DNA from: Candidatus Saccharimonadota bacterium
Lineage (GTDB): Bacteria; Patescibacteriota; Gracilibacteria; Absconditabacterales; Absconditicoccaceae
Assembly: GCA_030429145.1 (NCBI GenBank)
Contig: JAUIDC010000001.1
Location: forward strand, 330,001 to 362,000
Length of the DNA: 32,000 bases
Direction of reading: 5' to 3'
Of this stretch, positions 1,279 through 31,176 are shown piece by piece. Each line of letters begins with the position of its first letter. Position 1 is the first letter of the stretch. Position numbers and translations under genes: made by a program. A model generated the notes under the pieces. It did not search any database, was not told the DNA's origin, and saw only the letters and a list, made by a program, of their open reading frames with translations.

Positions 1279-2385
1279 ATGATGACAAAAAAAACAGCCT
1301 TCGTACACGACCGAATAGCACAGGAGTGAGGCGCTGAATCAGTACTCAGACATCTCATCACTCAGGACCGTCACGACGAGTGAACTCTTTTTGTATTCTA
1401 CAGCAAACAGACGCGGCGAAAGGTAAACGACAAAACATACCGCATCGTTACAGCTCTTCCGCGCTGGCTCAACAACTGGTTCATCACCTGCAACACGAGA
1501 AAGTTTTTCCTACTCTCTACGCTATTCGATTATAGAAACCTTATGTTTTGGTTTCCTCTCCTCACTCGAATACTTTCACGCAAGATAAAAAAATACAAAC
1601 CTGATCATATTATTATCTCATCATTTGCTGCTGCAAAAAATATCAATACATCTATCGCACCAACAACGCTCTATCTCCACTCACCGATGCAATACATCTG
1701 GGAGAACTACTACGACAACCTTCATAAACTTCGCTTCCCTATCAAGCAGCTCTATCAGTTTGCTGCACAATATCTGCGTCCTTGGGACAAGAAAAAAAGA
1801 CAGTACAACACCGTTCTCTTCAATAGTGAATACACACAATCTATTGCAGAAAAACTCTATGACATGTCATGAGAAGTACAATATCCGCCGGTCGATAAAG
1901 TGTTCGATGGATGATATTCGCCCGCAGTATGACATCAGTATTTTATTTTTGTATGAAGAGTGGTAAGGTACGTGAGAGAGATAGATAAGATTATTATGTT
2001 GTTTAATAAGATCGGTGAGCCGTTAGTGATTATGGGAGACGGGCCGGATATGTGATATGCGCAAAGCATTGCTTGACCAAATATTTTGTTTACCGGCCAT
2101 ATCGAAGACGCTGACGAAAAGAAAAAAATGATAGCACAGTCTCGCGGACTCATCAACATCGCCAAGGAGTCATTTTGACTCTCGACTGCGGAAGCACTCT
2201 GCTCTGGCGTCCCTGTCTTTGGATACAATGGCTGAGCTACCAGATATCTTGTCAACGAATCAAACGGCTATCTTGTAGAGGAGAAAGACGAAAGATCACT
2301 CATAGAAGGTCTTGAACATTTTATGCATATGAAATTTAATAAAGAAAAGATTGCGACTGAAGCACAAAAGAAATTCTTCGCATAG
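1279..2385 (+). CDS. Glycosyltransferase, GT-B fold / family 4-like (368 aa, table 25)
   Basis: One 369-codon frame ending in TAG once 10 in-frame TGA are read as Gly. The N-terminus reads FVHDRIAQE-G-GAE and the C-terminus KESF-G-LSTAEALCSGVPVFGY (E-x-F-G...EA..G.PV signature). TGA falls on the conserved Gly in both (1327-1329, 2176-2178). Absorbs track ORF 1543-1872. Confidence 0.8.
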
Positions 2386-2447
2386 TTAGCACTTGATTTT
2401 TGTGATAAAATAGGATATCAGTTAGTGGTATCAAACTTTACTGCATT

Positions 2448-2699
2448 ATGAAAGAACAAACTATATTGCTTGAACTACCCATAGAAGAGATGGACCTGTA
2501 CTCATTAGAGCGTCTTGTTGAGATACTACATACTATAGAAACCCTGGAAGCAAAAGAGTTTTTAGACGACCACCTCAATCAAGGCAACGCTACCAATGAG
2601 TTCTACATGATAGAATATGATACAACATGTCATCTCACTATCGATGAAAATCGCGCAATCACGATTACGGATATTATCGTGGCACCAATAGCTGCATAA
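2448..2699 (+). CDS. Hypothetical small acidic protein (83 aa)
   Basis: Intact ORF with an ATG start and TAA stop, followed by a rho-independent terminator. No recognisable motif. Confidence 0.55.
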   Translation: MKEQTILLELPIEEMDLYSLERLVEILHTIETLEAKEFLDDHLNQGNATNEFYMIEYDTTCHLTIDENRAITITDIIVAPIAA

Positions 2700-2724
2700 C
2701 AGGACTATCTTCTATCCACAAAAT

Positions 2725-2754
2725 CTCCGGCATGTCCGGAGCTTTTTCTTTTTT
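2725..2754 (+). terminator. Rho-independent terminator
   Basis: Stem CTCCGG (2725-2730) / CCGGAG (2736-2741) with a 5-nt loop, followed by CTTTTTCTTTTTT. Confidence 0.7.
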
Positions 2755-2781
2755 GACAATCATTTGCATTGGCTATATAAT
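2753..2781 (+). promoter_or_regulatory. Consensus sigma70 promoter for the pilin-like gene pair
   Basis: TTGACA (2753-2758), exactly 17 nt, TATAAT (2776-2781). Both hexamers are perfect. It sits 42 nt upstream of the ATG at 2823. Confidence 0.7.
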
Positions 2782-2822
2782 GTAGCTATATAGAGTATGT
2801 TATTATTACTATACGACAAAAA

Positions 2823-3302
2823 ATGATGAAAAAAATAATTGTGATATGTCTTGGGCTATATGTGTTATTGACTGGTAGTGCTTTTGCAACTGGAGTCACT
2901 AGCAGCAACAGCCGATGAGATAAATGATCCTCGCCGATAGAAATTTTGGACAACATCGCTGGAGAAGCAAATCAAGAGTACAGGATACAAGAGACCTCAC
3001 TCGATGGAGTCAATGACGATCAGTGAGCATTTGCCGCAAAATACAAGATGGCGAACACCCTCGACAGCATCAGAATAAAGATCGCTCCATATCTGCAGTG
3101 GGCGTTTTTCATTGGTCTAGGGCTGGCAGTCATATTGATCATATACAATGGCATACTTCTCATGACTGGAGCCGTCAGTGGCGAAGACTACAAAAAAGTG
3201 ATCGGCAGAATTAAAAACATCGGTATCGGCGTAGCGATACTCACATGATTTGCCATCATTATCAGACTATTCATCGCCATCCTCTCTTCTGCTCTCTCAT
3301 AA
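2823..3302 (+). CDS. Secreted T4SS-pilin-like (TrbC/VirB2-like) membrane protein, single module (159 aa, table 25)
   Basis: Signal peptide MMKKIIVICLGLYVLLTGSAFA. Then helix, polar loop, helix: ...AVILIIYNGILLMTGAVSGEDYKKVIGRIKNIGIGVAILTGFAIII. Four in-frame TGA read as Gly; TAA stop. Absorbs track ORF 3048-3248. Confidence 0.6.
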
Positions 3303-3340: not shown

Positions 3341-4249
3341 ATGATTAAGAAGATTTTCCTTTGATGCGTAGCTGCCTGCCTCCTAGCCCTCAATGTCGCT
3401 CAGGCTGTACCTCCAACATTTGATCAACAAATTGGGAAGCCTCTCACTACCGACAACAGTGGCAACGACGAAACCGTCATCTCCCCAAATGCTTTTGGTA
3501 TTGATCCTAACAAAACTTTTAAAGAAAATATCTACAATCTTTTTTCACCACTCAACGACAACTCGGTCATCCGAAGAACTCTGAGAACTATCATGGTGGG
3601 TGTGCTTGTCCTTTATATTGCATGGGCCGGCATTGATATGATGCAACATGCAGCGGATGAAACAAGACAGAAAAGAGTCAGAAGAAGTTTCTTATATATT
3701 TGAGTTGGTGCCTTTATGATACGGTGAGCCACATGGATTCTCGGTACTGCTCTACAAGTCGGTACGGTACAAGGTACGCAGTGACTGGTAAGTAATTTAC
3801 AAAACAATGTGCTCTTCCAAATCCTCGCCTTCCTCAAGGGGCTCGCATTCTTCTATGCTATCGTCATGCTCATCTACTACGGCTTCCAGTTTATGAGAGC
3901 ACTTGAAGAAGAGTCAAAGATAAAGGCAGCTAGAACAGGTCTGATCAATGTGATCGTGGCGCTAGTACTTATCAAGATTATCGACTTTATCTTCTTCATC
4001 GCTCAGCAACAAGACTTTGGTTCAAGACTCCAAAACTTCCTTGTTGATGCAGCAAGAATCGCCGCATACGTTCTCTGAGCCGGTATGGTTCTCGCACTTA
4101 TCCGAGGTGGTGTCAGATATCTCACTTCACAAGGTGACGAGGAAAAAGTGAAAGACGCACAGAAGATCATTACAACTATCTTCTTCATTATACTTACCAT
4201 CTTCCTTTTCCTTCTTGTGGTCTATCAGTTGGTAGCCGAGTTTACGTAG
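3341..4249 (+). CDS. Secreted membrane protein with three tandem T4SS-pilin-like modules (302 aa, table 25)
   Basis: Signal peptide MIKKIFLGCVAACLLALNVAQA. Three helix-loop-helix units share one loop motif: AWAGIDMMQHAADETRQKRVRR, IYYGFQFMRALEEESKIKAART and LIRGGVRYLTSQGDEEKVKDAQK. The last resembles the GG.xY.TS.GD....AK motif I recall from CPR/Gram-positive T4SS pilin families. Five in-frame TGA; TAG stop. Absorbs track ORF 3809-4078. Confidence 0.6.
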
Positions 4250-4830: not shown

Positions 4831-6198
4831 ATGAAACAGAAAATATTACATATATTTTATAAACTCCTTGGGGCGCTCGCTCGCCGTTATCTGAAAAGGT
4901 GGAAGCCAATAGTAATTGGGATCAATGGAAGTGTTGGAAAGACCTCTTGCAGGATGATCATTACGGATATACTCAAGCACTATCTCCCTCACGATGAGAT
5001 TTACACTTCACCGAAGAATTTCAACGGCGAGCTTGGGATGTCGCTAGCCATTTTTAAGATAGAACATTGGTGAGCAAGTCGATCAGCGATGTTTGGTGCG
5101 CTATGGAAAACATTTGTGTTAGCATTTTTTTCAAGAAAGAAACCGTATGATGTGACCATTTTAGAGTATGGGATAGACACTCCTGGAGAGATGTCGTTTC
5201 TCCTCTCTATCGTGAAACCACACATTAGTGTGTTGACAAAAATAGACGCAGTGCACTCGCTCCAGTTTGGAAATCCGCAAGAGATCGCAAAAGAAGAGAC
5301 AAAGCTACAAGTATGAACACTAGAGACCTGCTTTATCAACGAGGATGACAGTTATGGACGCTCTTTACGCGACAAGGTGAATGTAGACATCTTGCGATAC
5401 GATACCAATGAATCTGACGACAAAGAGATTTCAGTAAGATACAATAACTATAAACTCGTTCCTCATGGGAAAACTATTGGGTCGTCGTCTGACATTGCCA
5501 TAGGTATCAAAAAACATCATATTACTACCAACATTCTCGGCAAGTTCAACCATGGGTATATCGCTGTTGGTCTTGCTATCGCAGACATTGTGCACCATAA
5601 GCTACATGGACAGGACTGCACACCTGCAGACGGCAAGACAAAACTAGACCTACACCTCCAAGCAGGCAGGATGACAGTCTTCGAAGGTATTCACAACAGT
5701 GTCATCATAGACAGCTCGTACAATGCATCTCCACTGAGCATGAAAGGAGCTATTAACGACCTTTATCGCATACAAAAAGAGGTTCTACCTGATCATAAGA
5801 TAGTTCTTGTCCTTGGTGACATGCGCGAGCTTGGCGAGTGGGAAGAGCAGCACCATCGCGAGTTGGCTGGATATCTATCGCAATATGGCGACACTATTAT
5901 GCTCCTTGGTGCTACGACAGGCAAATACACTGTTGATGAACTCAAAAAACTCTGATATCCTATGCAGAATGTGCACCATTTCACTCACTATGATAAGCTT
6001 GGTAGCGCTTTGAAAGAACTCCTTACAAATAATAGCGACGACAACTACCTCTTACTATTTAAGGGAAGTCAAAATACGATCTTCCTCGAAGAAGCCATCA
6101 AATATATCCTCCAGGATCCAATTGATGAAGAAAGACTAACGAGACAGTGAGATTGGCGAGCACAAAAGAAAGAATCTGTTATGAGAAACATAAGATAG
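4831..6198 (+). CDS. murF: UDP-N-acetylmuramoyl-tripeptide--D-alanyl-D-alanine ligase (MurF-type Mur ligase, 455 aa, table 25)
   Basis: Track ORFs 4831-5073, 5089-5316, 5377-5955 and 5962-6150 are all in one frame and joined by four TGA. Mur-ligase P-loop GINGSVGKTS; IIDSSYNASP and VLGDMRELG resemble the MurF motifs DDTYNANP and VLGDMLELG. TAG stop at 6196-6198. Confidence 0.8.
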
Positions 6199-6258: not shown

Positions 6259-7107
6259 ATGACAAAACTTAGGCTTCCGAAATGGGCTCATGACAATCAG
6301 AGACAAGAGGTATACACGAACAAAAGATATGAACATATCAACTCTTTGCAAAAAGCATGTGGGTCGACGGAAGAAGACCTCTCTGAGCTTCTTTCTATCA
6401 AGATAGACAACCTCTTAGAAGGCTTGAGCTGAGAGTATCTTATTGAAACAAAGAAATATCTCCATAATATTGGGACATATCGCCAGCTTGACCTTGTGTT
6501 GTGCCAGTATAATAAAATAACAGGACAGGAGGATATTTTTAATCCCTACTCGAATCCTTGATACGAGTTTTTCGCCTCTCTTGTCATTGGACATCATTAT
6601 TTTTTTAATAGAGCTCCTGATATCCACTATACGGACACCGATATCGATGCGCGAAATCAAGCCAGAGAAGTGCAAGACCTTCCTCTCGAAGAGACACTTA
6701 GGAATCTTTCATACGATTTTATTATTTCTGGCTATCTGTTTCATGAAGAACTCTTTGAAAAAGATGATAATGGCATATACCGCCTCATCCCAAAAAATAT
6801 AAATAAAGCATGAACACGAACCGATGAAGGCATTGGATTTACCAATAATGAGCTCATTTTCAGAGCGACTCCTACTCGCTCATATACCTCAGAGGAAAAA
6901 GGAGCAGCTGAGATAAGAATCCCTAGAGAGCTCATTCCTCTTTATATCCAAGCGTATGTAGATACCAACCGTAAAGTTTCGACTGAAATCACGAACCTAC
7001 ACACAAAGAAGATATCTCAAGCCTTAGATAGCTTACTCTCTCTTCCTCAATCAGAAAGGAACTCCGCTAAGATGGACCAATTCATCAGGGAAGAGATCAA
7101 AGAATAG
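6259..7107 (+). CDS. Hypothetical protein (282 aa, table 25)
   Basis: Continuous frame from the ATG at 6259 (an in-frame ATG at 6220 lies inside the promoter) to TAG at 7105-7107, with three TGA read as Gly. Track ORFs 6415-6675 and 6741-6935 are antisense shadows; 6581-6802 is an alternate-frame (same-strand) artefact. No motif recognised. Confidence 0.6.
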
Positions 7108-7471: not shown

Positions 7472-7930
7472 ATGGCAAGCATTATTGTCCACAACGGCGA
7501 GCATTTTGAAAGGGGCAAAACCCGATATGTCGTATTTTCTCTCGTTCTTGTAGTATTGATTGTAGTATCGGTTCTTTTTGAGAATTTTTTCGGTGCTATC
7601 ATCCTCTTTTTACTAGTAGGAGGCTATATTTTGTTTGCTCTTATGAGAAATAAGAAAATATCAATTCGCACCTCTGAACAGGGCCTTGCCATAGCAGACA
7701 AACTCGTCCCGCGAACGCAGCTACTTCAACGAAGCGTCGAACTGGATGCAGAGAGTTGAGAGGTAAAAAATCTCATTATTGTAGCTAAAAATGATAAACT
7801 CATCTTTAGTCTCGACGATGATAAAGAGAGCACAAAGATATTTATGAATGAGCTCAATGAACAGCTTCCCTTAGCGGAAAACTTAGAGTTTTCATTCACT
7901 GAAAAGCTCATCAGAAAATTAAAACTATAA
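7472..7930 (+). CDS. Two-TM membrane protein with a C-terminal soluble domain (152 aa, table 25); topology resembles DUF304/bPH_2
   Basis: ATG at 7472 (the track starts at TTG 7460). Reading through TGA at 7757-7759 extends it to TAA at 7928-7930. Two adjacent hydrophobic helices are followed by ~85 soluble residues. Confidence 0.5.
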
Positions 7931-8485: not shown

Positions 8486-8674
8486 CTATAATTCAGCCTT
8501 ATATTTCTTATACATCTTTGCTGACATCTTTACTTTCACTTTGATGCCATCACCTAGATCTACTTTTTTTGTGATAAGATTTGGTTTGAAAGCTCTAGAA
8601 GTCGCTCTCATTGAGTGAGATCTGTTGTTTCCAAAAACCGTTTTCTTACCTGATATTTGACACTCTCTTGCCAT
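8486..8674 (-). CDS. rpmB: 50S ribosomal protein L28 (bL28)
   Basis: [33 protein letters not shown] matches the L28 signature (MAR.C...GK....GNN.SHS..T.R.F.PNL). 62 aa. Confidence 0.92.
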
Positions 8675-9975: not shown

Positions 9976-9988
9976 AGAGAGAATGATA

Positions 9989-24228: not shown

Positions 24229-24256
24229 TGTCGTATAAGTAGATAGTTAAAATAAA

Positions 24257-24661
24257 TTAGTAGATTTCTGCAATAAGCTCTCCTCCTATCTTTTTCTGTT
24301 TTGCCACATGGCTTGGCATCAATCCTTGAGATGTTGAGAGAATTCCTATACCGCGACCTGCAGCTACTGGCTTAATCTCCTTATATGAAATATACCAGCG
24401 TCTTGATGGTCTTGAGTAGAACTTAATAACTGGAATGTCATTAATTTCGTCCTCAACCTCCTTAAGATCAATAGAGATTGTTTTCTTATTGCCCTCTGAG
24501 GCTACATCATATCCTATGATAAAACCATACTGCTTTAGCAGCTCAAGTACGTTTACCTTAAAATTAGAATAAACGACACCGTCCACGCGAGTTCTTCTCG
24601 CCATGTACGCATTTTTTATTCTAATCAAGAGATCATGTATAGGAGCGTTTACAAAACTCAT
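24257..24661 (-). CDS. rpsH: 30S ribosomal protein S8 (uS8)
   Basis: PIHDLLIRIKNAYMARR... and a C-terminal GGELIAEIY. 134 aa. Confidence 0.92.
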   Translation of the reverse strand: MSFVNAPIHDLLIRIKNAYMARRTRVDGVVYSNFKVNVLELLKQYGFIIGYDVASEGNKKTISIDLKEVEDEINDIPVIKFYSRPSRRWYISYKEIKPVAAGRGIGILSTSQGLMPSHVAKQKKIGGELIAEIY

Positions 24662-24697
24662 GGAAATAGTTAACAGAAAAATATAAAGGAAAGATTT

Positions 24698-24922
24698 TTA
24701 CCAACTTGCTTTTTTCAAACCTACGATAAGTCACTCTCTCGCGTACTTTCTCAGGCATACTCTACAGATACCGAAGTCTCTGAAGTAACTATTAGCTCTT
24801 CCGCAAAGCTTACATCTGTTGTAATACTTTGTGGCATGCTTCATAGTTTTACCTTCCGCAAGAGCTTTCTCTCTACGAGCATTTAGTTTTGCTTGTTTCA
24901 CTTTTAGTGCATTTCTTGCCAT
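24698..24922 (-). CDS. rpsN: 30S ribosomal protein S14, zinc-binding type Z (uS14; 74 aa, table 25)
   Basis: CxxCGR...CRVC zinc knuckle. Reading TGA at 24731-24733 as Gly recovers the conserved tail ...[16 protein letters not shown] (compare G.IPGVKKASW), then TAA at 24698-24700. The track ORF stops 11 codons early. Confidence 0.92.
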
Positions 24923-24952
24923 GGATAGTGATTAGGATATGGTAGTAAAAGA

Positions 24953-25501
24953 TTATTTCTTCTCAACAAAGATGAACCCTAGTGCTTTCATAAGAGCAAT
25001 AGCATCTTCCTTTGTCTCAGCATTAGTCACAACATTGATTTGAACACCCATCGCTGCTTGTGTATCGTCTGCCATAAGCTCAGGGAAGATAGACTGTGTT
25101 GCAAGTCCGATGTTATAGTTATTATTTGGATCGAAACTCTTTGGATTGAGTCCAACGAAGTCTCTCACACGAGGCATAACGATAGTTGTTAGTTTATGTA
25201 AGAAGTCATACGCCTTGTCTTTTCTCAACGTCACCTTCAACATAACAGGCATATCCTCTCTCAATTTGAAGTTCGAGATCGCCTTCTTCGACTTAATCAT
25301 TACTGGCTTCTGTCCTGTGATAGACATAAGATTCTTCTCAAGGTCAGAGAAATCCTTCACGCCTTTTCTCGTTGCCAAAGAACCAATACCCACACTGACG
25401 ATAACCTTATCGATAGAAGGAACTTGGTGAATATTTTTCTTCTGCAATTCCTTTTGGAGCGCAGTCTTCTTTTCTGACTTATATTGTTGATAGATACTCA
25501 T
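24953..25501 (-). CDS. rplE: 50S ribosomal protein L5 (uL5)
   Basis: VPSIDKVIVSVGIG...; ...ISNFKLREDMPVMLKVTLR..KAYDFL.KL....PRVRDF.G. The ATG at 25501 is preferred over the track TTG at 25516. Confidence 0.9.
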   Translation of the reverse strand: MSIYQQYKSEKKTALQKELQKKNIHQVPSIDKVIVSVGIGSLATRKGVKDFSDLEKNLMSITGQKPVMIKSKKAISNFKLREDMPVMLKVTLRKDKAYDFLHKLTTIVMPRVRDFVGLNPKSFDPNNNYNIGLATQSIFPELMADDTQAAMGVQINVVTNAETKEDAIALMKALGFIFVEKK

Positions 25502-25533
25502 GGGGAGTAAATACAAAGTGATAAAGTAATAGT

Positions 25534-25824
25534 TTATTTGATAGCTTCTTTGCTTGTTTTCAGCACTCTCACTCTTTTTCCGTTTTTATCAGCGTCAATA
25601 CCTACTCTCGAAGCTTTCTTTGCTTTTTCATCATAGAGCGCAATGTTGGAAATATGTACAGGATGAATTTTATCTATGAACCCCTGTCATTTTACCGCCT
25701 TTTTCATCACATTGACTCCTTTTACGACAACCATGTCGCCGTTTACAGACTCAACCGTTGATGTTTTTCCCTTGAACTTACCGGCGATAACAACAACCGA
25801 ATCTCCTGCTTTGATCTTTTTCAT
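25534..25824 (-). CDS. rplX: 50S ribosomal protein L24 (uL24; 96 aa, table 25)
   Basis: MKKIKAGDSVVVIAGKFKGKTSTV (KOW motif). Reading TGA at 25687-25689 gives ...KKAVK-G-QGFIDKIHPVHISNIALYD. TAA stop at 25534-25536. Confidence 0.9.
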
Positions 25825-25873
25825 AATTGGATCGTAGTATACAAGTAAATAGTATGATAGATATATGAAACTG

Positions 25874-26242
25874 TTATATAACCTCCTCTGCAAGAGTAGC
25901 AACGTCCTTGAAGCCAACATCTCTTAGCTCTTTTGCCACAGGACCGAAGATTCTCTTCCCGATTGGTTCATCATCCTCGTCAATAAGAGCAACCGCATTG
26001 TCGTCAAATCTAAGGTATGTACCATCTTTTCTTCTTACTTCTTTCTTCGTTCTGACAACAACAGCTCTCGCAGTGTCACCCTTCTTAAATGAAGAGCTCG
26101 GTGAGGCAGTCTTGATAGCGACCTTTACTCTATCTCCGATAGTTGCTTTGTCTGACATAGATCCCTTGAGGATACCTATGACCTGTGCAACCTTTGCTCA
26201 GCTGTTATCAGCAACGATAACTTTTGATTGTCTTTGTAACAT
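25874..26242 (-). CDS. rplN: 50S ribosomal protein L14 (uL14; 122 aa, table 25)
   Basis: The true N-terminus MLQRQSKVIVADNS-G-AKVAQVIGILKGS is recovered by reading TGA at 26198-26200 as Gly (consensus MIQ..S.L.VADNSGAK). The track ORF starts 28 codons late. Confidence 0.93.
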
Positions 26243-26273
26243 TGTGACAATAAGTAATAATGATAATAAATGA

Positions 26274-26537
26274 TTATACTGCCTGACCGACAACTTCTAC
26301 CAACGCCCATCTTTTAGTCTTGCTGCGTGGATTGTCCTGTCTGATTCTTACAGTATCTCCTGCTTTCGCTGTATTCTCAGCATCGTGAGCGTAGTATTTC
26401 TTTCTTACAGTAAATCTTTTTCTGTAGAGCGGATGCTGCTTGACAGTCTTTGTCATCACAACGATGGTTTTATCCATCTTGTCGCTCACTACTGTACCTA
26501 CAAGCTCTTTGATACTTTTTCCTCCGATAATAGCCAT
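26274..26537 (-). CDS. rpsQ: 30S ribosomal protein S17 (uS17)
   Basis: [14 protein letters not shown]......HPLYRK......KYYAHDE.N.AK.GD.V.I....P.SK.KRW. 87 aa. The start overlaps the rpmC stop by 1 nt (TAATG). Confidence 0.92.
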
Positions 26538-26749
26538 TATTGAGCGAGAGATTTAGAAGATAAAGCGGTATTTACCCTTGCAATGTTTCTTCTGACAGCA
26601 CGAATCTGGTGCGTCTCTTTCAATGCTTTCACATGATTTTTCATCTGAAGCGAAAAGAGCTGCTTTCTAAGATCGTTACGAAGCGCAACAAGATCTTTAT
26701 ATGATTTCTCTGTCAGATCATTCATAAGGAGTTTTTCTTTCTTTGCCAT
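26537..26749 (-). CDS. rpmC: 50S ribosomal protein L29 (uL29)
   Basis: 70 aa and helical, with ...LR..LF.L+M+......+.TH.IR.VRR.IAR..T. It sits between rplP and rpsQ. Confidence 0.88.
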
Positions 26750-26786
26750 TTTATAGTAATGGTTTCTAAGACAATAAAACAGATTG

Positions 26787-27209
26787 TTATCTTACTTCAC
26801 CTTTTTCTACCATCCTGGTAGTCATAGGAAGCTTATACGATGCCTTCTTGAATGCCTCTTCAGCTATTTCTCTGTCGAGCCCACTCACCTCAAAAAGGAT
26901 TCCTCCTTTTTTTACTCTTGCCTGGTAGTGATCTACGTCACCCTTACCAGAACCCATCGGCATTTCAAGCCCCTTCTTCGTGTATGGAACATCCGGGAAG
27001 ACTCTAAACCAGATCTTACCAACCTTTCTTGTATATCTTACGATAACCTTTCTGGCTGCTTCGAGCTGTCTGTTGCTGACGTAGGCACTTGTAGTGGCTT
27101 TCAGTCCATATTCACCAAAAGCAACTTTATTACCTCTTGTCGCCGCACCAGTGATACGCCCTCTCATTTGTTTTCTATATTTCCATCTCTTTGGAGTTAA
27201 GATAGACAT
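26787..27209 (-). CDS. rplP: 50S ribosomal protein L16 (uL16)
   Basis: L.PKR.KYRK..RGR..G.A.RGN.VAFGEYGL+A.....++.RQ+EAAR. 140 aa. Confidence 0.94.
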   Translation of the reverse strand: MSILTPKRWKYRKQMRGRITGAATRGNKVAFGEYGLKATTSAYVSNRQLEAARKVIVRYTRKVGKIWFRVFPDVPYTKKGLEMPMGSGKGDVDHYQARVKKGGILFEVSGLDREIAEEAFKKASYKLPMTTRMVEKGEVR

Positions 27210-27248
27210 CGTAATATTGTGCTATATATAAACTAAATGTGTGAGATA

Positions 27249-27950
27249 TTATTGCATAATTTTTTTCATCGCTTGTTGTTTTTTCACCTCATTAGAGTCT
27301 GTATTGTTCCCTTTCAATTTCACGAGCGTGTCACCCTTTGAGATCCAGACCTTGATACCAATGATTCCGTATTTTGTAAGAGCCGTTGTATAATGATAGT
27401 CGATATCAGATCTTAACGTTTGAAGAGACACTCTTCCTTCTGAGAACTTTTCTGTTCTTGAAAGGTCTACACCACCAAGACGTCCAGATACCTGAACTTT
27501 CACACCAGTCGCACCCTTCTCCATAACTTTCTGGAGAACCATCTTAGCAACGCGTCTAAATGGCATACGAGCCTCTATCTGCTGAGCAGCAAACTCACCC
27601 ATAATCTTAGCCGACAATTCAGGAAGTCTTACATCTTTAAGCACCACCTTGAACTCACGACCGAACCTCTTTTGCAGAAGCTTCGAAAACGACTCCAGCT
27701 TACTTCCCTCTTTACCAAGGATAAGCGCAGGCTTAGCTGTAAAGATGATGACCTCTCCCTCTTTCTCAGTCTTTCTGATAACCACTTTTGCGATACCAGC
27801 TCTGACGAAAGTTTCGTCGATCAATCTTCTGATTTGAATATCCTCTACGAAGAACTGAGCACCTTGTCCTCTTGTTTTAGCGAACCACTCCGACGGCCAC
27901 GTCTTAGTAATACCAGCTCTTAGTCCTCTAGGATCTGCTTTTTGTCACAT
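27249..27950 (-). CDS. rpsC: 30S ribosomal protein S3 (uS3; 233 aa, table 25)
   Basis: ATG at 27950..27948 is followed immediately by TGA (27947..27945), giving M-G-QKADPRGLRAGITKTWPSEWFA, the universal S3 N-terminus MGQK..P.G.RLGI...W.S.W+A. The track ORF starts 42 codons late at a TTG. Confidence 0.93.
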
Positions 27951-27961
27951 GAAATGAAGGA

Positions 27962-28300
27962 TTATTTATTATCTAAAACTACTCTTACAAATGCTCTATG
28001 TTTCACGTATCCGTGAATTCTTGATCTTGCTACAAATCTACTTCTCTTCAACTTTGGTCCGCGACCCACAGTGATATGTGAGATATAGAGCGTTTGTGCA
28101 TTCTGTCCAGCATTGTTTACTGCATTTGCCTGTGCTGACTTGATCACCTTCCAAAGCATTTTTGCAGAAGCTTTTGGCGTATGCTCAAGGATAGTGAGTG
28201 CCTCATCGACATTCTTTCCTTGTACGAGCTTTGCCACAAGCTGCATCTTCTTGTAAGATGTGAGCGCATATTTCAGTGTTGCTGTAAGACTTTTATTCAT
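27962..28300 (-). CDS. rplV: 50S ribosomal protein L22 (uL22)
   Basis: ...KM.LVA.L++GK.V.EAL.IL......K.A......+KSA.ANA.NN...........V..GP.LKR...RA.GR. 112 aa. Confidence 0.92.
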   Translation of the reverse strand: MNKSLTATLKYALTSYKKMQLVAKLVQGKNVDEALTILEHTPKASAKMLWKVIKSAQANAVNNAGQNAQTLYISHITVGRGPKLKRSRFVARSRIHGYVKHRAFVRVVLDNK

Positions 28301-28336
28301 GATAACAACAATTATTGAACCAATAAAACAGTAGAA

Positions 28337-28594
28337 TTAGAACGGATGTCCTCTAAATGATCTTGTCAGTACAAACTCTCCGAGTCTATGACCAATCATT
28401 TCTTCATTGATATAGAGACTAACAAAGCTTTTACCGTTGTGGACAGCCAATGTGAAACCAACCATCTCAGGAGTGATCTGGCTTGCTCTGTCCCACACCT
28501 TAATTACCTTTTTATCTCCGCTTGCTGTCATCTTTTCTATCTTTTTAGCAAGCTTCTCGTTGACGTAAAAGCCTTTTTTTAGCGATCTTGTCAT
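28337..28594 (-). CDS. rpsS: 30S ribosomal protein S19 (uS19)
   Basis: [11 protein letters not shown]...L..K+.........IK.W.R.S.I.PEMVG.T.AVHNGK.F..+.I.E.M+GH+LGEF. 85 aa. Confidence 0.94.
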
Positions 28595-28627
28595 GTAAAC
28601 AATATAGACAAATAAATGAGATATATG

Positions 28628-29473
28628 TTAGTTCTTCGTTCTCTTCGAAACGATGAATTTCGTTGACCATTTCTTCTTGCTTCTTGTTTTCTTTCCGAGC
28701 GGCACTGGACGTCCATTGAAGGCCTTCGGGAATCTCAGACCAATCTCGGCATGTCCTTCTCCACCACCATGAGGATGGTCTACCGGATTCATAGACTTAC
28801 CAAGTACGTGAGGTTTAATACCCTTCCATCTCTGTCTTCCAGCCTTACCGATAACGATGTTTTTATGATCTTCGTTACCAAGTTGACCAATAGTAGCAAA
28901 ACATTTTTCATCGAACTTTCTTACCTCTCCAGACGGCATCTTAATAAACACCAACTGCTGACCCTCATCTTTACCGACAATCTCTCCATACAAACCAGCC
29001 GACTTGATCACCTTTCCTTTCGTGAAAGGCGTAAACTCAAGATTGAATATCTGAAACCCTTCTGGAATGTCTTTCAGTTGCTTTCTGTTTCCAGAAGTCA
29101 AAGCAGCCTGATCACCAGTCATGAAGCTATCTCCTACCGCGATACCTTTCCAAGCAAGCACATATCTTTTCTCTCCATCTGCAAAGCTTACAAGAGCGAT
29201 ACGAACAGTTCTGTACGGATCATATTCGATAGCAGTCACTTTTGCAGGTATATTCATTTTGTCATACCCTCTAAAGTCAACTATACGATAGAGCTTCTTG
29301 TGTCCTCCCCCTCTAAATCTCGATGTCGTTCTACCATACTGGTTTCTTCCAGCAGTAGAACCAATCGTCTTAGTGAGAGATTTCTCTGGTCTCTTCTTTG
29401 TGATATCAGAAAAGTCATATCCTACCATAGAACGTCTTGAGGGAGTGTATGGTTTATACGTTTTCACAGCCAT
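28628..29473 (-). CDS. rplB: 50S ribosomal protein L2 (uL2)
   Basis: MAVKTYKPYTPSRR......RGGGHKK.YR.+DF.R...........IEYDP.R.A.IAL...DGEKRY.LA; MNPVDHPHGGGEG. 281 aa. Confidence 0.95.
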   Translation of the reverse strand: MAVKTYKPYTPSRRSMVGYDFSDITKKRPEKSLTKTIGSTAGRNQYGRTTSRFRGGGHKKLYRIVDFRGYDKMNIPAKVTAIEYDPYRTVRIALVSFADGEKRYVLAWKGIAVGDSFMTGDQAALTSGNRKQLKDIPEGFQIFNLEFTPFTKGKVIKSAGLYGEIVGKDEGQQLVFIKMPSGEVRKFDEKCFATIGQLGNEDHKNIVIGKAGRQRWKGIKPHVLGKSMNPVDHPHGGGEGHAEIGLRFPKAFNGRPVPLGKKTRSKKKWSTKFIVSKRTKN

Positions 29474-29523
29474 AATTACGAGAGTTACGTTGATGATAAA
29501 TAGAAGTTATTTTTGAATAGTGA

Positions 29524-29871
29524 TTAGTCTGCTAGAGATATTTTGTCTCCTTTTTTAAGAGAAACAACAGCCTTTTTGTAAGAGCGTCTTACCAGACTTC
29601 TATTTGCTCTCCCCTTCTCTTTTACCCAAGAGATATTTACAGAAGACGGAGTTACATTGTACACAGTCTGGATAGCCTGCTTCACATCAATCTTGTTTGC
29701 ATCAGAGTGTACTTTGAACATGTACTTGTGAGCACCATCTCCTTCTGTTCCCGCATATGCTTTTTCAGTCACAAGCGGAGCAAGGATGATCTGATACGGA
29801 CTGAGCTTAGCAAGAGCTTTTGGCGATGAAGCCTTTTTTGCTCTCTGTCTGAGTATTTGCTTAAATGTCAT
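29524..29871 (-). CDS. rplW: 50S ribosomal protein L23 (uL23)
   Basis: ...ILAPLVTEKA......KY.FKV...ANK..+K.A+..+Y.V....VN... I chose the ATG at 29871. The alternative ATG at 29913 would overlap the rplD 3' end by 11 nt. Confidence 0.85.
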   Translation of the reverse strand: MTFKQILRQRAKKASSPKALAKLSPYQIILAPLVTEKAYAGTEGDGAHKYMFKVHSDANKIDVKQAIQTVYNVTPSSVNISWVKEKGRANRSLVRRSYKKAVVSLKKGDKISLAD

Positions 29872-29902
29872 GGTAACAAAACGATAATCTTTAAATGAGT
29901 TT

Positions 29903-30538
29903 TTATGATACAAGCTTCTCTATCTTTTCCATAGATCCCTCTAGAAGAAGAATCTTGTCGTACTGCAGAAGATCAACAGGATTGATATAATCAGCAAGGA
30001 TAGACTTTGTACGAGGAATGTTGTTAAATGACTTTATAACGATCTCGTCCTTTTCAGGCATAACAATAAGCGTCTTATTGTTGCTTAGCCCAATCTTACC
30101 AAGAACGCTTGCAGCGTCCTTTGTCTTGATAGCCTTCAACGGAGTTGCCTCGAGCCCCATAAGTTGCTCGTTCTTAGCCTTGAGAGTAATGATACCACAC
30201 AATGCAAGCTTCTTCATCTTCTTGTTCATTGTCTTAGAGTGGTTCACATCATTTCTTGGACCAAAAGCAACACCTCCATGTCTTCTGATTGGAGAGCTAG
30301 CCTCACCCACTCTTGCATTACCAGTTCCTTTCTGTCTGTAGAGTTTTCTACCAGACCCCGTTACCTCTGCTCTTGTCTTTGTGTGAGCGATAGGATGACG
30401 AGCGTTTGCCTGTTGCAGGAGAAAGAACTCATGAATAAGGTCGTCGTTGATTCTCTCATCATTGAAGAGAGCCTCATTGAGCGACAACTTCCCCGTTGCC
30501 TTTCCATCTTTATTGTAAACTTGTATTGTATATGTCAT
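29903..30538 (-). CDS. rplD: 50S ribosomal protein L4 (uL4)
   Basis: ...H.KTRAEV.GSGRK.+RQKGTG.AR.G...SP..R.GGVAFGP. 211 aa. Confidence 0.93.
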   Translation of the reverse strand: MTYTIQVYNKDGKATGKLSLNEALFNDERINDDLIHEFFLLQQANARHPIAHTKTRAEVTGSGRKLYRQKGTGNARVGEASSPIRRHGGVAFGPRNDVNHSKTMNKKMKKLALCGIITLKAKNEQLMGLEATPLKAIKTKDAASVLGKIGLSNNKTLIVMPEKDEIVIKSFNNIPRTKSILADYINPVDLLQYDKILLLEGSMEKIEKLVS

Positions 30539-30573
30539 TGTTACATACCATCGGAAGAATAAATACTATATGA

Positions 30574-31176
30574 TTATGCGTAGAGCGAAAGAAGACTATT
30601 GTATGCCCCTGGCACAGACCCTTTCACTGCGATAAACTTATCATCTCCAATAGTGAGAATATCAACTACTGGTCTTTCATGAAGCGTTACTGTTTCAAGT
30701 CCCATGTGACCCGCATGAGGATGTCCTTTCTGAACTCTTCTTGGCTTTCTATTACCCAAAGAACCTACGTGTCTATGGAATTTAGAACCATGAGTCTTAG
30801 GACCTCCAGCAAGACCAAATCTTCTGATAGCACCCTGATATCCTTTACCCTTTGAGACGCCAGTCAGTGAGACCTTTTCAACACCCTCAAGAAGAGAAAC
30901 GTCAACAGCCGTACCTGCTGTAAACTTTTCTTTGAACTCATCACTTACAGGGAACTCTTTCATCCAAGCGTAAGCGATCTTTTGCCCCTTTTCTTTCTGG
31001 AGTTCTTTCTTGCCACCCGCTAAGATAGCAGCCTCATATCCATCCTTTTCTTGGGTCTTATATCTGACCACCTCCTGTGGAACAATCTGCAATAGCGTTA
31101 CCGCCGTATGCACATCATCCATCCAGAGCTTCGTCATCTCTTTTTTTCTGACCATTAGTCAACCTTTATTAGCCAT
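30574..31176 (-). CDS. rplC: 50S ribosomal protein L3 (uL3; 200 aa, table 25)
   Basis: The start MANKG-G-LMVRKKEMTKLW is recovered by reading TGA at 31159-31161 as Gly (consensus M.KG+LG+K.GMT.I+). Core ...G.SKGKG+QG.++R.......THGS..HR..GS.G. The track ORF starts 7 codons late. Confidence 0.92.

What the first reader, a model, noticed from the sequence alone, without database searches (positions are those of the whole stretch)
1279..31176. UGA is decoded as glycine throughout (translation table 25); the fragmented ORF track is an artefact of the standard code
Every gene that the standard-code track splits becomes one full-length frame when TGA is read as sense, and the restored genes end only in TAA or TAG. 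The sense TGAs land on invariant or near-invariant Gly positions. These include uS3 codon 2 (M-G-QK, 27945-27947), uL14 ADNS-G-AK (26198-26200) and the uS14 tail [12 protein letters not shown] (24731-24733). They also include SecY LLG-G-S (21722-21724), uL24 KAVK-G-QGF (25687-25689), uL3 K-G-G-L (31159-31161), RseP GM-G-PKL (13645-13647) and the GT4 E-x-F-G motif (2176-2178). By hand I count about 57 sense TGA in 18 genes. UGA=Gly is known only from Gracilibacteria (BD1-5/GN02) and Absconditabacteria (SR1). That places the organism in one of those groups and dictates how the whole contig must be annotated. The code is already described, but it is the dominant signal in this window.
Basis: partly seen in the sequence, partly recalled or inferred. 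Interest (0 to 1): 0.7.

Follow-up and report, generated by a model that had tools for sequence, protein, structure and literature searches.

The report
Absconditabacteria code: UGA=Gly, CGA/CGG=Trp

Summary
I count 58 in-frame TGA codons in 18 of 40 genes. All 40 genes end in TAA (30) or TAG (10).

UGA=Gly is strongly supported:
- Four ribosomal/SecY TGAs sit on columns that are Gly in 65-80 standard-code bacteria.
- RseP codons 46, 182 and 186 and GT4 codons 300 and 319 sit on Gly in solved structures.
- Against seven Absconditabacteria genomes, window TGA aligns with 72 GGN, 53 TGA, 20 other codons and no TGG.
- Pfam scores favour Gly over Trp by 51 bits in total.

"Table 25" is incomplete. 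The 27 CGA and 5 CGG codons in the window behave as Trp. They align with TGG 35 times and with AGA/AGG/CGT/CGC never. One sits on an invariant Trp column of DUF1003. Among all 64 codons, only TGA, CGA and CGG deviate from the standard code. This is the Absconditabacteria code that Shulgina and Eddy predicted in 2021. It places the organism in SR1 rather than Gracilibacteria.

The tRNAs and the loss of RF2 could not be checked.

Verdict: already known, low to moderate interest.

The parts
1279..2385 (+). GT4-type glycosyltransferase, 368 codons. It has 10 sense TGA (first bases 1327, 1381, 1870, 1912, 1930, 1954, 2053, 2074, 2176, 2233) and 4 CGA/CGG (1312, 1414, 1417, 1567).
   Evidence: Pfam Glycos_transf_1 scores 49.8 bits with TGA=Gly and 33.3 with TGA=Trp. 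Codon 300 (ExFG) and codon 319 (GG) align with Gly in four solved GT4 structures.
2823..3302 (+). T4SS-pilin-like membrane protein, 159 codons. It has 4 TGA (2916, 2925, 3024, 3246) and 1 CGA (2913).
   Evidence: Pfam PF18895. Relatives have TGA, GGA or GGC at the TGA sites.
3341..4249 (+). T4SS-pilin-like membrane protein, 302 codons. It has 5 TGA (3362, 3701, 3725, 3782, 4076) and 3 CGA/CGG (3572, 3722, 4103).
   Evidence: PF18895 scores 31.6 bits under code 4, 42.2 under code 25, and 48.4 with CGA/CGG=Trp as well. Relatives have TGG at codons 78 and 128.
4831..6198 (+). Mur ligase (MurF-like), 455 codons. It has 4 TGA (5071, 5314, 5953, 6148) and 3 CGA (5080, 5395, 6157).
   Evidence: Pfam Mur_ligase_M and Mur_ligase_C. 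CGA codon 189 aligns with Phe in the one solved MurF aligned without a gap there; another has a gap. Relatives have TGA or GGN at most TGA sites; the exceptions are GAC at codon 81 and GCG at codon 162, one relative each.
6259..7107 (+). Unknown protein, 282 codons. It has 3 TGA (6430, 6559, 6811) and 2 CGA (6652, 6817).
   Evidence: The frame is open only if TGA is sense. There is no family match and no relative in the fetched loci.
7472..7930 (+). Small membrane protein, 152 codons. It has 1 TGA (7757) and 3 CGA (7523, 7712, 7730).
   Evidence: Relatives have GGA, GCA or TGA at the TGA site. They have TGG at CGA codons 18 and 81.
11442..12002 (-). DUF1003 membrane protein, 186 codons. It has no TGA and 1 CGA (11802-11804, codon 67).
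   Evidence: Column 67 is Trp in 106 of 120 homologues, including proteins named from Rhizobium, Microvirga and Rhodoplanes. The 14 'R' are the window's own protein and mostly its closest relatives. Pfam scores 135.6 bits with R and 140.2 with W.
12565..13782 (-). RseP-type M50 site-2 protease with a PDZ domain, 405 codons. It has 7 TGA (13645, 13258, 13237, 13225, 13111, 12991, 12613) and 2 CGA (12823, 12592).
   Evidence: Codon 46 aligns with Gly in the E. coli, Kangiella and Aquifex RseP structures. Codons 182 and 186 align with the PDZ 'AGL..GD' glycines. CGA codon 320 falls on V, M or F. Relatives have TGG at both CGA sites.
13842..14657 (+). TatD-family hydrolase, 271 codons. It has 2 TGA (13929, 13935) and 2 CGA (14022, 14079).
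   Evidence: Pfam TatD_DNase at 208 bits. The TGA sites are not Gly columns in solved TatD proteins (V or variable), but relatives have TGA or GGA. CGA codon 80 aligns with K, K and E in relatives. It is the one site that looks Arg-like.
14659..16125 (-). Membrane protein with a C-terminal methyltransferase-like domain, 488 codons. It has 7 TGA (16081, 16024, 15991, 15964, 15703, 15664, 15241) and 3 CGA/CGG (15619, 15616, 15289).
   Evidence: All seven TGA sites are GGN or TGA in three relatives. Weak Pfam Methyltransf_3 match.
16272..18566 (+). Large unknown protein, 764 codons. It has 3 TGA (17163, 17229, 17532) and 1 CGA (17139).
   Evidence: Relatives have GGA or TGA at all TGA sites, and TGG, CGA, TGG at the CGA site. 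No family match.
18682..19677 (+). RNase_H_2-superfamily 3'-5' exonuclease-like protein, 331 codons. It has 4 TGA (18895, 19249, 19465, 19618) and 2 CGA/CGG (19039, 19444).
   Evidence: PF13482 scores 30.2 bits under code 4, 37.4 under code 25, and 42.5 with CGA/CGG=Trp. CGG codon 120 is TGG in three relatives.
19723..20499 (+). SAM-dependent methyltransferase, 258 codons. It has 2 TGA (20374, 20413) and 5 CGA/CGG (19798, 20191, 20233, 20287, 20461).
   Evidence: Relatives have GGN or TGA at both TGA sites. They have TGG in at least two relatives at all five CGA/CGG sites. Family columns split into W and R only, for example 84 W and 52 R.
20600..21925 (-). SecY, 441 codons, 1 TGA (21722-21724, codon 68).
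   Evidence: The column is Gly in 65 of 65 standard-code loci. Relatives have GGA, GGT or TGA.
24698..24922 (-). uS14, 74 codons, 1 TGA (24731-24733, codon 64).
   Evidence: The column is Gly in 74 of 74 aligned standard-code loci. Relatives have GGA, GGT or TGA.
25534..25824 (-). uL24, 96 codons, 1 TGA (25687-25689; codon 46 from the ATG at 25822-25824, listed as codon 45 in my tables, which began one codon later).
   Evidence: Relatives have TGA, TGA, GGT, GGT and AAA. In standard-code uL24 the column is Pro next to a 6-7 residue deletion, so it is not a conserved Gly column.
25874..26242 (-). uL14, 122 codons, 1 TGA (26198-26200, codon 15).
   Evidence: Gly in 80 of 80 standard-code loci. 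Pfam scores 146.5 bits with G and 141.6 with W.
27249..27950 (-). uS3, 233 codons, 1 TGA (27945-27947, codon 2).
   Evidence: Gly in 72 of 72 aligned standard-code loci. Relatives have GGA or TGA.
30574..31176 (-). uL3, 200 codons, 1 TGA (31159-31161, codon 6).
   Evidence: Relatives have TGA four times and GGA in A. praedator. The T. thermophilus alignment puts it on Ile of KGILG, so it is not a conserved Gly column outside the clade.
8486..11273 (-). Genes free of TGA, CGA and CGG: bL28 (8486-8674), bL25 (8707-9372), bL19 (9406-9777), two small conserved ORFs (9817-9975, 9989-10240), uS7 (10275-10745) and uS12 (10854-11273).
   Evidence: They serve as the contrast set for codon avoidance in translation genes.
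22001..32000 (-). S10-spc ribosomal protein cluster from uS10 to uL15, plus the EF-Tu C-terminus. It holds only 5 TGA and no CGA or CGG. There is no uL30 gene between uS5 (22472-23239) and uL15 (22001-22447).
   Evidence: These genes gave the codon-by-codon comparison with 80 standard-code loci and with the relatives that carry this cluster.

Best explanation
The window is chromosomal DNA of an uncultured member of Absconditabacteria (candidate division SR1, Patescibacteria/CPR). Its genetic code differs from the standard one at three codons: UGA is a glycine codon, and CGA and CGG are tryptophan codons. Only UAA and UAG terminate translation.

Shown here:
- TGA occupies glycine positions, and CGA/CGG occupy tryptophan positions.
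- All other 61 codons behave normally.
- All three reassigned codons are avoided in translation-machinery genes.

Inferred from published work on this clade and not seen in the window:
- A tRNA-Gly with anticodon UCA reads UGA, and release factor 2 has been lost.
- tRNAs with anticodons UCG/CCG that carry tryptophan identity read CGA/CGG.
- tRNA-Arg(GCG) and tRNA-Arg(UCU) keep CGU/CGC and AGA/AGG as arginine.

The fragmented ORF track is an artefact of translating with table 11. Table 25 repairs the frames but still puts Arg where the cell puts Trp.
For: UGA is sense:
- 58 in-frame TGA in 18 genes, no in-frame TAA or TAG, and 40 of 40 genes end in TAA or TAG.

UGA=Gly, anchored on standard-code organisms:
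- SecY-68, uS14-64, uL14-15 and uS3-2 are Gly in 65, 74, 80 and 72 of the aligned standard-code loci, with no exception.
- RseP-46, -182 and -186 and GT4-300 and -319 are Gly in solved structures.
- 312 TGA codons of relatives fall in ribosomal-protein columns. Of these, 227 are columns that are at least 60% Gly in standard-code bacteria and none is a Trp column. GGA, GGT and GGG give the same proportion.
- Pfam bit scores favour Gly over Trp at TGA by 51 bits over nine families, and Gly is never worse.

UGA=Gly, within the clade (alignments made with TGA masked as X):
- Window TGA aligns with 72 GGN, 53 TGA, 20 other codons and 0 TGG.
- Relatives' TGA aligns with 338 window GGN and 53 TGA out of 475, and with no Trp.

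CGA/CGG=Trp:
- Window CGA aligns with CGA 31, TGG 26, CGG 2 and unambiguous Arg codons 0. Window CGG aligns with TGG 9, CGA 4 and CGG 1.
- By contrast, AGA, AGG, CGT and CGC align with Arg 1134 times and Trp once (Fisher p about 3e-66, although the cells are not independent).
- Window TGG aligns with CGA or CGG in relatives 44 times.
- DUF1003 codon 67 is Trp in 106 of 120 homologues.
- RseP-320 falls on V, M or F, and Mur-189 on F, in solved homologues.
- Pfam favours Trp over Arg by a net 18 bits.
- In a scan of all 64 codons, only TGA, CGA and CGG deviate.
- Usage is CGA 31, CGG 5.8 and TGG 70 per 10,000 codons, and AGA is the main Arg codon. This matches the published figures for Absconditabacteria (PMC8629427, read; restated in PMC13092985 and a 2026 bioRxiv preprint).

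Taxon:
- The best named uL2 and RseP hits are Absconditabacteria, Absconditabacterales, Ca. Absconditicoccus praedator and SR1 RAAC1.
- There is no uL30 gene, as in CPR bacteria.
Against: - No tRNA(UCA), tRNA(UCG/CCG), prfA or prfB lies in the window or in the 9.5 kb of the source contig reachable beyond it. The decoding machinery is therefore inferred.
- All evidence is comparative. There are no peptide data.
- The standard-code anchor for the window's own CGA/CGG codons rests mainly on one invariant Trp column, two hydrophobic or aromatic columns, and Pfam scores. The rest comes from relatives that share the code.
- TatD codon 80 (CGA) aligns with K, K and E in relatives. Three families score slightly lower with Trp (Mur -2.2, TatD -0.3, GT4 -0.1 bits).
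- CGG has only 5 codons in the window.
- Window GC is about 0.40, slightly above the 0.26-0.38 range reported for clades with CGA/CGG reassignment.
Confidence: 0.92

Rival explanations
1. Plain translation table 25: UGA=Gly and everything else standard, so CGA/CGG remain arginine.
For: - UGA=Gly is fully supported.
- TatD codon 80 (CGA) aligns with Lys, Lys and Glu in relatives.
- Mur_ligase_M scores 2.2 bits higher with Arg.
- NCBI-style annotation of relatives translates these codons as R.
Against: - Window CGA/CGG never align with AGA, AGG, CGT or CGC in relatives, but align 35 times with TGG.
- The other Arg codons do the opposite (1134 Arg against 1 Trp).
- There is an invariant Trp column in DUF1003.
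- CGA sits inside hydrophobic membrane segments of pil2 and memMT; RseP codon 320 falls on V, M or F in solved homologues.
- Pfam favours Trp by a net 18 bits.
- The reassignment is published for this clade.
Confidence: 0.04
2. UGA is tryptophan (table 4), as in Mycoplasmatales and some insect endosymbionts.
For: - Reading TGA as any sense codon restores the frames.
- Many database proteins of relatives show W at these columns. That pattern fits gene callers falling back on table 4.
Against: - None of 145 aligned relative codons at window TGA sites is TGG, and none of 475 relatives' TGA aligns with window Trp.
- The four anchored columns are invariant Gly.
- No Trp-majority column is found among 312 relatives' TGA.
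- Pfam is 51 bits worse with Trp.
- Conserved Trp positions use TGG or CGA/CGG.
Confidence: 0.005
3. The TGAs are real stops: pseudogenes, sequencing or assembly errors, or programmed readthrough or selenocysteine at a few sites.
For: None beyond the fact that the standard-code ORFs are broken.
Against: - 58 sites in 18 genes, including essential ribosomal proteins and SecY.
- The frames stay free of TAA and TAG for up to 764 codons.
- TGA is conserved or exchanged with GGN at the same codons in seven independent assemblies.
- The sites map to Gly, not Cys/Sec.
Confidence: 0.005
4. CGA (and perhaps UGA) is decoded ambiguously or inefficiently, so the reassignment is still in transition. This refines the best explanation and does not replace it.
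For: - The reassigned codons are strongly avoided in translation genes. TGA makes up 1.8% of Gly codons there against 18.2% elsewhere. CGA/CGG make up 0% of Trp codons there against 46% elsewhere.
- One CGA site looks Arg/Lys-like (TatD-80).
- The Codetta authors note the possibility of ambiguous translation.
Against: - Avoidance of rare codons in highly expressed genes is expected for any low-abundance tRNA and needs no ambiguity.
- Of 26 CGA/CGG sites with aligned relatives, 25 show TGG, CGA/CGG or hydrophobic residues (one also has Ser in one relative).
Confidence: 0.12

Closest known systems
Absconditabacteria (SR1) genetic code: UGA=Gly plus CGA/CGG=Trp. The UGA change is from Campbell et al. 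2013. The CGA/CGG change was predicted by Shulgina & Eddy 2021, eLife 10:e71402 (PMC8629427), and restated in 2026 papers (PMC13092985; bioRxiv 10.64898/2026.04.02.715157).
   Same: - All three reassignments are seen in the window.
- Usage is CGA about 31 and CGG about 6 per 10,000 codons, inside the published ranges (below 37 and below 7).
- AGA is the dominant Arg codon.
- The nearest named relatives are Absconditabacteria.
   Different: - Nothing essential differs.
- Window GC (about 0.40) is slightly above the 0.26-0.38 reported for CGA/CGG-reassigned clades.
- The tRNA evidence used in the paper could not be reproduced from this window.
NCBI translation table 25 (Candidate Division SR1 and Gracilibacteria code).
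   Same: UGA=Gly, and UAA/UAG are the only stops.
   Different: Table 25 keeps CGA/CGG as Arg. In this window it would mistranslate 32 codons in 13 genes.
Gracilibacteria (BD1-5/GN02) UGA=Gly code (Rinke et al. 2013).
   Same: UGA=Gly. It is the sister lineage within the same class (JAEDAM01 in GTDB naming).
   Different: According to PMC8629427, only some Gracilibacteria are predicted to read CGG as Trp, and CGA is not reported as reassigned there. The best hits for this window are Absconditabacteria, not Gracilibacteria.
Table 4 (Mycoplasmatales and others; UGA=Trp).
   Same: UGA is a sense codon and RF2 is dispensable.
   Different: The amino acid differs. Here UGA columns are Gly and never Trp.
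CGG=Trp in Anaerococcus and in a clade of uncultivated Bacilli of GTDB order RFN20 (PMC8629427).
   Same: An arginine CGN codon is reassigned to tryptophan in a lineage where that codon is rare.
   Different: Those lineages change CGG only and keep CGA=Arg and UGA=stop. Here CGA is the commoner reassigned codon.

Membership tests
Translation table 25 (UGA=Gly, otherwise standard) | In-frame UGA inside conserved genes, with termination only at UAA/UAG | tested here: met
   58 in-frame TGA in 18 genes. 40 of 40 genes stop at TAA (30) or TAG (10).
Translation table 25 (UGA=Gly, otherwise standard) | UGA falls on glycine columns of homologues from standard-code organisms | tested here: met
   - SecY-68, uS14-64, uL14-15 and uS3-2 are invariant Gly in 65-80 loci.
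- RseP-46/182/186 and GT4-300/319 are Gly in PDB chains.
- Pfam favours Gly over Trp by 51 bits.
- uL24-45, uL3-6 and TatD-30/32 are not Gly columns outside the clade.
Translation table 25 (UGA=Gly, otherwise standard) | All other codons keep their standard meaning | tested here: not met
   CGA and CGG align with Trp codons and never with unambiguous Arg codons. There is an invariant Trp column in DUF1003.
Translation table 25 (UGA=Gly, otherwise standard) | tRNA-Gly with anticodon UCA (G1:C72, C2:G71, G3:C70, U73) | not testable with these tools
   The window holds only tRNA-Lys(UUU). The reachable flank holds tRNA-Phe, Ile and Pro. The rest of the 127.9 kb contig and of the genome could not be fetched.
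Translation table 25 (UGA=Gly, otherwise standard) | Loss of release factor 2 (prfB) | not testable with these tools
   Absence cannot be shown from 41.5 kb of one contig.
Absconditabacteria code (UGA=Gly, CGA/CGG=Trp; Shulgina & Eddy 2021) | CGA at tryptophan positions | tested here: met
   - The 27 window CGA align with 31 CGA, 26 TGG, 2 CGG and 0 AGA/AGG/CGT/CGC in relatives.
- DUF1003-67 is Trp in 106 of 120 homologues.
- RseP-320 and Mur-189 fall on hydrophobic or aromatic residues.
- One odd site: TatD-80.
Absconditabacteria code (UGA=Gly, CGA/CGG=Trp; Shulgina & Eddy 2021) | CGG at tryptophan positions | tested here: met
   Four of the five window CGG have aligned relatives. The aligned codons are TGG 9, CGA 4 and CGG 1, with no Arg codon. 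The sample is small.
Absconditabacteria code (UGA=Gly, CGA/CGG=Trp; Shulgina & Eddy 2021) | Rare use of CGA (below 37 per 10,000) and CGG (below 7 per 10,000), with AGA as the main Arg codon | tested here: met
   CGA is 27 and CGG is 5 of 8,690 codons (31 and 5.8 per 10,000). AGA is 289 of 420 unambiguous Arg codons.
Absconditabacteria code (UGA=Gly, CGA/CGG=Trp; Shulgina & Eddy 2021) | tRNA(UCG)/(CCG) with Trp identity, tRNA-Arg(GCG) present, and no tRNA-Arg(ACG) | not testable with these tools
   None of these tRNA genes lies in the reachable sequence.
Absconditabacteria code (UGA=Gly, CGA/CGG=Trp; Shulgina & Eddy 2021) | Organism belongs to Absconditabacteria/SR1 | tested here: met
   - Named best hits for uL2 are 76% to Ca. 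Absconditabacteria, 73% to Absconditabacterales, 70% to SR1 RAAC1 and 69% to A. praedator.
- RseP hits carry the same names.
- Gene order is shared with those genomes.
- No phylogenetic tree was built.
Absconditabacteria code (UGA=Gly, CGA/CGG=Trp; Shulgina & Eddy 2021) | Low genomic GC (0.26-0.38 reported; a correlate, not a definition) | tested here: inconclusive
   Window GC is 0.38-0.44 per 2 kb, about 0.40 overall. This is one 32 kb window rich in ribosomal genes and rRNA, not the genome.
Translation table 4 (UGA=Trp) | UGA falls on tryptophan columns | tested here: not met
   No TGG among 145 aligned codons. No Trp-majority column among 312 relatives' TGA. Pfam is 51 bits worse.
Selenocysteine recoding | A few UGA at Cys/Sec active-site columns, each with a SECIS element | tested here: not met
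   58 sites in 18 unrelated genes, aligned with Gly and GGN. No SECIS family passed the Rfam thresholds.
Candidate Phyla Radiation / Patescibacteria | No uL30 gene in the spc operon | tested here: met
   uS5 (22472-23239) is followed directly by uL15 (22001-22447). The gap is 24 nt.

The most novel reading that the evidence does not exclude
The reassigned codons may still be in transition in this lineage. CGA, and perhaps UGA, could be read inefficiently or ambiguously (Trp/Arg, Gly/termination). That would explain their near-exclusion from translation-machinery genes: TGA is 1.8% against 18% of Gly codons, and CGA/CGG are 0% against 46% of Trp codons. It would also explain the single Arg/Lys-like CGA site in TatD. 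If so, this comparatively GC-rich (about 0.40) Absconditabacteria lineage would be a natural system for watching a sense-codon reassignment at an intermediate stage.
Probability: 0.1. Interest if true: 0.55.

Novelty: already known. Interest (0 to 1): 0.3.

Why it matters
The value is practical, not conceptual.
- Table 11 shatters 18 of 40 genes in this window.
- Table 4, which some gene callers fall back on, puts Trp at 58 glycine positions.
- Table 25, the official choice, still puts Arg at 32 tryptophan positions in 13 genes.

The homologue sets fetched here show the likely consequence in public databases. Columns that should be pure Gly appear as a G/W mixture, and columns that should be pure Trp appear as a W/R mixture. 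The likely cause is mistranslation under tables 4, 11 or 25, but I did not see the codons behind those database proteins. This degrades family profiles and structure predictions for SR1 proteins.

The two reassignments together also diagnose the lineage: Absconditabacteria rather than Gracilibacteria. Neither reassignment is new. UGA=Gly dates from 2013 and CGA/CGG=Trp from 2021.

Tried and rejected
- The one genome-contig scan (uL14) returned only standard-code Bacteroidota, Ignavibacteria and similar. This is probably because the tblastn confirmation penalises TGA-bearing relatives. I used those loci as standard-code anchors. I reached relatives through protein searches and exact contig look-ups instead.
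I ran the TGA-free part of the methyltransferase instead. Its homologues turned out to be mostly from the same recoded clade, so it gave W/R and G/W split columns but no clean standard-code anchor.
- The RseP homologue search likewise returned only clade members.
- TatD alignments to solved structures were uninformative for its two TGAs, which fall on variable or Val columns.
- The look-up of the 100% identical DUF1003 protein showed only the Logan contig, not the 936,577 bp NCBI contig that also carries it. The organism name and the whole genome therefore stayed out of reach.
- A literature search for the run and assembly accessions found nothing.
- No tRNA(UCA), (UCG) or (CCG) was found in any fetched locus.
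- ORF 4298-4753 (-) has no counterpart in relatives, so I left it out of the counts.
- I considered and rejected selenocysteine, pseudogenes and assembly error. The reasons are under the rival explanations.
- I made no structure predictions. They would not bear on the question.

Full report
**Layout of the window.** Under the standard bacterial code the window shows 117 short ORFs of at least 60 aa and many broken genes. When only TAA and TAG are treated as stops, long frames appear on both strands.

Pfam and visual identification give the following genes:
- a GT4 glycosyltransferase (1279-2385)
- two T4SS-pilin-like proteins (2823-3302, 3341-4249)
- a Mur ligase (4831-6198)
- two unknown proteins (6259-7107, 7472-7930)
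- bL28, bL25, bL19, two small conserved ORFs, uS7 and uS12 (8486-11273, minus strand)
- a DUF1003 protein (11442-12002) and a 130-codon ORF of unknown function (12115-12507, minus strand)
- RseP (12565-13782)
- TatD (13842-14657)
- a membrane protein with a methyltransferase-like domain (14659-16125)
- a 764-codon unknown protein (16272-18566)
- an RNase_H_2-type exonuclease (18682-19677)
- a methyltransferase (19723-20499)
- SecY (20600-21925)
- the spc/S10 ribosomal cluster up to uS10, and the EF-Tu C-terminus at the window end

Rfam finds the first about 870 nt of 23S rRNA at 1-896 (minus strand) and tRNA-Lys(UUU) at 8385-8458.

**Check of the observation.**
- I count 58 in-frame TGA in 18 of the 40 genes tabulated.
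- Each of the eight coordinates quoted is a TGA in frame 0 of its gene.
- All 40 genes end in TAA (30) or TAG (10).
- The 8,690 in-frame codons hold no TAA or TAG. The two off-frames of the same genes hold 286 and 341.
- A frame such as the 368-codon GT4 gene, with ten TGAs, could not stay free of TAA and TAG by chance.

**Which amino acid does TGA encode? Standard-code anchors.**
- A scan of one genome per species with uL14 returned 80 loci. All were from standard-code bacteria, mostly Bacteroidota and Ignavibacteria, and each carried the ribosomal operon.
- In these loci the TGA columns of SecY-68, uS14-64, uL14-15 and uS3-2 are Gly in 65, 74, 80 and 72 aligned loci, with no exception.
- In solved structures, RseP codon 46 aligns with Gly in E. 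coli, Kangiella and Aquifex RseP. Codons 182 and 186 align with the PDZ 'AGL..GD' glycines.
- GT4 codon 300 is the Gly of the E-x-F-G motif, and codon 319 is a Gly of the 'GG' motif, in four structures.
- Translating ten proteins under different codes and scoring them against Pfam gives a summed advantage of 51 bits for Gly over Trp at TGA. No family prefers Trp.

- uL24 codon 45 lies on the Pro of 'KKxxKP', at the edge of a 6-7 residue deletion specific to this lineage.
- uL3 codon 6 aligns with Ile of 'KGILG' in Thermus.
- The two TatD TGAs also lie on non-Gly columns.
- These sites do not contradict Gly, because relatives have GGN there. They are simply not invariant Gly positions outside the clade.

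**Relatives.**
- A protein search with uL2 found hits of 66-89% identity. Where the hits carry a name, they are mostly Candidatus Absconditabacteria, Absconditabacterales, Ca. Absconditicoccus praedator or SR1 RAAC1.
- I fetched the corresponding loci from seven genomes. I compared them codon by codon with the window, after re-aligning with TGA (and later CGA/CGG) masked as X so that the test is not circular.
- Window TGA aligns with 72 GGN, 53 TGA, 20 other codons and no TGG.
- TGA in the relatives aligns with window GGN 338 times and with window TGA 53 times out of 475, and never with Trp.
- Given a TGA in a relative, the window has Gly or TGA in 69-88% of cases. For the relatives' GGN codons the figure is 81-94%.
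- Of 312 TGA codons of relatives in ribosomal-protein columns, 227 lie on columns that are at least 60% Gly in the 80 standard-code loci, and none lies on a Trp column. GGA, GGT and GGG give the same proportion.
- UGA=Gly is therefore established as firmly as comparative data allow. Table 4, selenocysteine, pseudogenes and assembly error are excluded.

- In the same comparison, window TGG aligned with an 'arginine' codon in relatives 44 times out of 213. All 44 were CGA or CGG.
- The window itself has 27 CGA and 5 CGG. None is in a ribosomal protein, SecY or EF-Tu.
- Window CGA aligns with CGA 31, TGG 26 and CGG 2. Window CGG aligns with TGG 9, CGA 4 and CGG 1. Neither ever aligns with AGA, AGG, CGT or CGC.
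- The window's AGA, AGG, CGT and CGC codons do the opposite: Arg 1134 times, Trp once.
- Of 26 CGA/CGG sites with aligned relatives, 15 have TGG in at least one relative. Seven have only CGA/CGG (one of them also CTT). Three have hydrophobic residues (one of them also Ser in one relative). One, TatD codon 80, has Lys, Lys and Glu.

**Standard-code anchors for CGA/CGG.**
- The CGA at DUF1003 codon 67 lies on a column that is Trp in 106 of 120 homologues, including proteins named from Rhizobium, Microvirga and Rhodoplanes. The 14 'R' are the window's own protein and mostly its closest relatives.
- RseP codon 320 falls on V, M or F. Mur codon 189 falls on Phe in the one solved MurF aligned without a gap there.
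- Pfam scores rise by a net 18 bits when CGA/CGG are read as Trp. The gains are pil2 +6.2, exonuclease +5.1, DUF1003 +4.6, RseP +3.2 and methyltransferase +1.5. The losses are Mur -2.2, TatD -0.3 and GT4 -0.1.
- A scan of all 64 codons shows that exactly three deviate from the standard meaning: TGA to Gly, CGA to Trp and CGG to Trp.

**Comparison with the literature.**
- Shulgina and Eddy (eLife 2021, PMC8629427) predicted with Codetta that Absconditabacteria have reassigned both CGA and CGG to Trp, in addition to UGA=Gly.
- They report CGG below 7 and CGA below 37 per 10,000 codons and AGA as the main Arg codon.
- They propose tRNA(UCG)/(CCG) as the decoders, and tRNA-Arg(GCG) rather than ACG for CGU/CGC.
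- The window's usage fits: CGA 31, CGG 5.8 and TGG 70 per 10,000, with AGA 289 of 420 unambiguous Arg codons.
- Two 2026 papers restate the reassignment as accepted.
- The window is therefore an ordinary member of a known recoded clade. The pair of reassignments places it in Absconditabacteria rather than Gracilibacteria.
- The absence of uL30 between uS5 and uL15 fits a CPR bacterium.

**Mechanism.**
- Shown here: the codon-to-residue correspondences, the exclusive use of TAA/TAG as terminators, and the avoidance of the reassigned codons in translation genes. TGA makes up 1.8% of Gly codons there against 18.2% elsewhere. CGA/CGG make up 0% of Trp codons there against 46% elsewhere.
- Inferred from the cited work: tRNA-Gly(UCA), loss of RF2, and Trp-accepting tRNA(UCG)/(CCG).
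- I could not test these. The source contig is Logan ERR3428547_4287, 127,872 bp, and the window is contig positions 11-32010. Only 9.5 kb beyond the window was reachable. That stretch and all relatives' loci contain only tRNA-Lys, Phe, Ile and Pro.

**Verdict.**
- The phenomenon is already known.
- The residual open point is whether CGA or UGA are read ambiguously in this lineage. The codon avoidance and the TatD-80 site hint at this, but ordinary rare-codon bias explains the avoidance equally well.

Noticed in passing
window 1312-20463 (32 sites; for example 11802-11804, 12823-12825, 19039-19041): CGA (27) and CGG (5) behave as tryptophan codons, not arginine codons. The finding as given did not mention this, and it changes which code should be used for annotation.
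   Followed up: yes
window 1-896 (-): The 5' end (about 870 nt) of 23S rRNA runs off the window start, which is position 11 of the source contig. No 16S rRNA gene lies upstream of it anywhere in the 32 kb window. A divergently oriented GT4 gene starts 380 nt away. The rRNA genes therefore look unlinked, or the assembly broke inside the operon.
   Followed up: partly
window 9817-9975 (-) and 9989-10240 (-): Two small ORFs (52 and 83 aa) lie between uS7 and bL19. The 52-aa basic protein is 94-100% identical in three relatives, and the nucleotide differences are almost all at third codon positions, so it is under strong purifying selection. Neither ORF matches any Pfam or NCBIfam family. It may be an unrecognised ribosome-associated protein.
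   Followed up: partly
whole window; translation genes 8486-11273 and 20600-32000 against the rest: The reassigned codons are avoided in translation-machinery genes. TGA is 6 of 342 Gly codons there against 52 of 286 elsewhere. CGA/CGG are 0 of 25 Trp codons there against 32 of 70 elsewhere.
   Followed up: yes
public homologues of window genes 11442-12002, 12565-13782 and 19723-20499: Database proteins of relatives show W in Gly columns and R in Trp columns. Examples are a methyltransferase column with 84 W and 52 R, and RseP-186 with 59 G and 50 W. The likely cause is translation under tables 4, 11 or 25. This would be a systematic annotation error for this clade.
   Followed up: partly
window 14079-14081 (TatD codon 80): This is the only CGA whose aligned residues in relatives are Lys, Lys and Glu rather than Trp, CGA or hydrophobic residues. 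It is either a variable surface position or a hint of residual Arg-like reading.
   Followed up: partly
window 20500-22000 and 22448-22471: The operon structure is unusual. There is no uL30, and SecY is not followed by adk, map, infA, rpmJ or rpsM as in most bacteria. It abuts convergent non-ribosomal genes instead. uS12 and uS7 lie 10 kb away, without fusA or tuf next to them.
   Followed up: partly
L082 8351-8617 (source contig beyond the window end) compared with L083-L087: The tRNA cluster upstream of tuf reads Phe-Ile-Pro in the source contig and Phe-Pro-Ile in all five relatives examined. This is a small local rearrangement.
   Followed up: no
window 2823-4249 (+) and 16272-18566 (+): Two adjacent paralogous T4SS-pilin-like membrane proteins (PF18895), and a 764-aa protein with an N-terminal membrane segment and no family match. 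All are conserved in relatives at 53-75% identity.
   Followed up: no
window 4298-4753 (-): A 151-aa ORF with two CGG, overlapping nothing, was called as a gene in the Logan record. It has no counterpart in the fetched loci of relatives, so its status as a gene is uncertain.
   Followed up: partly
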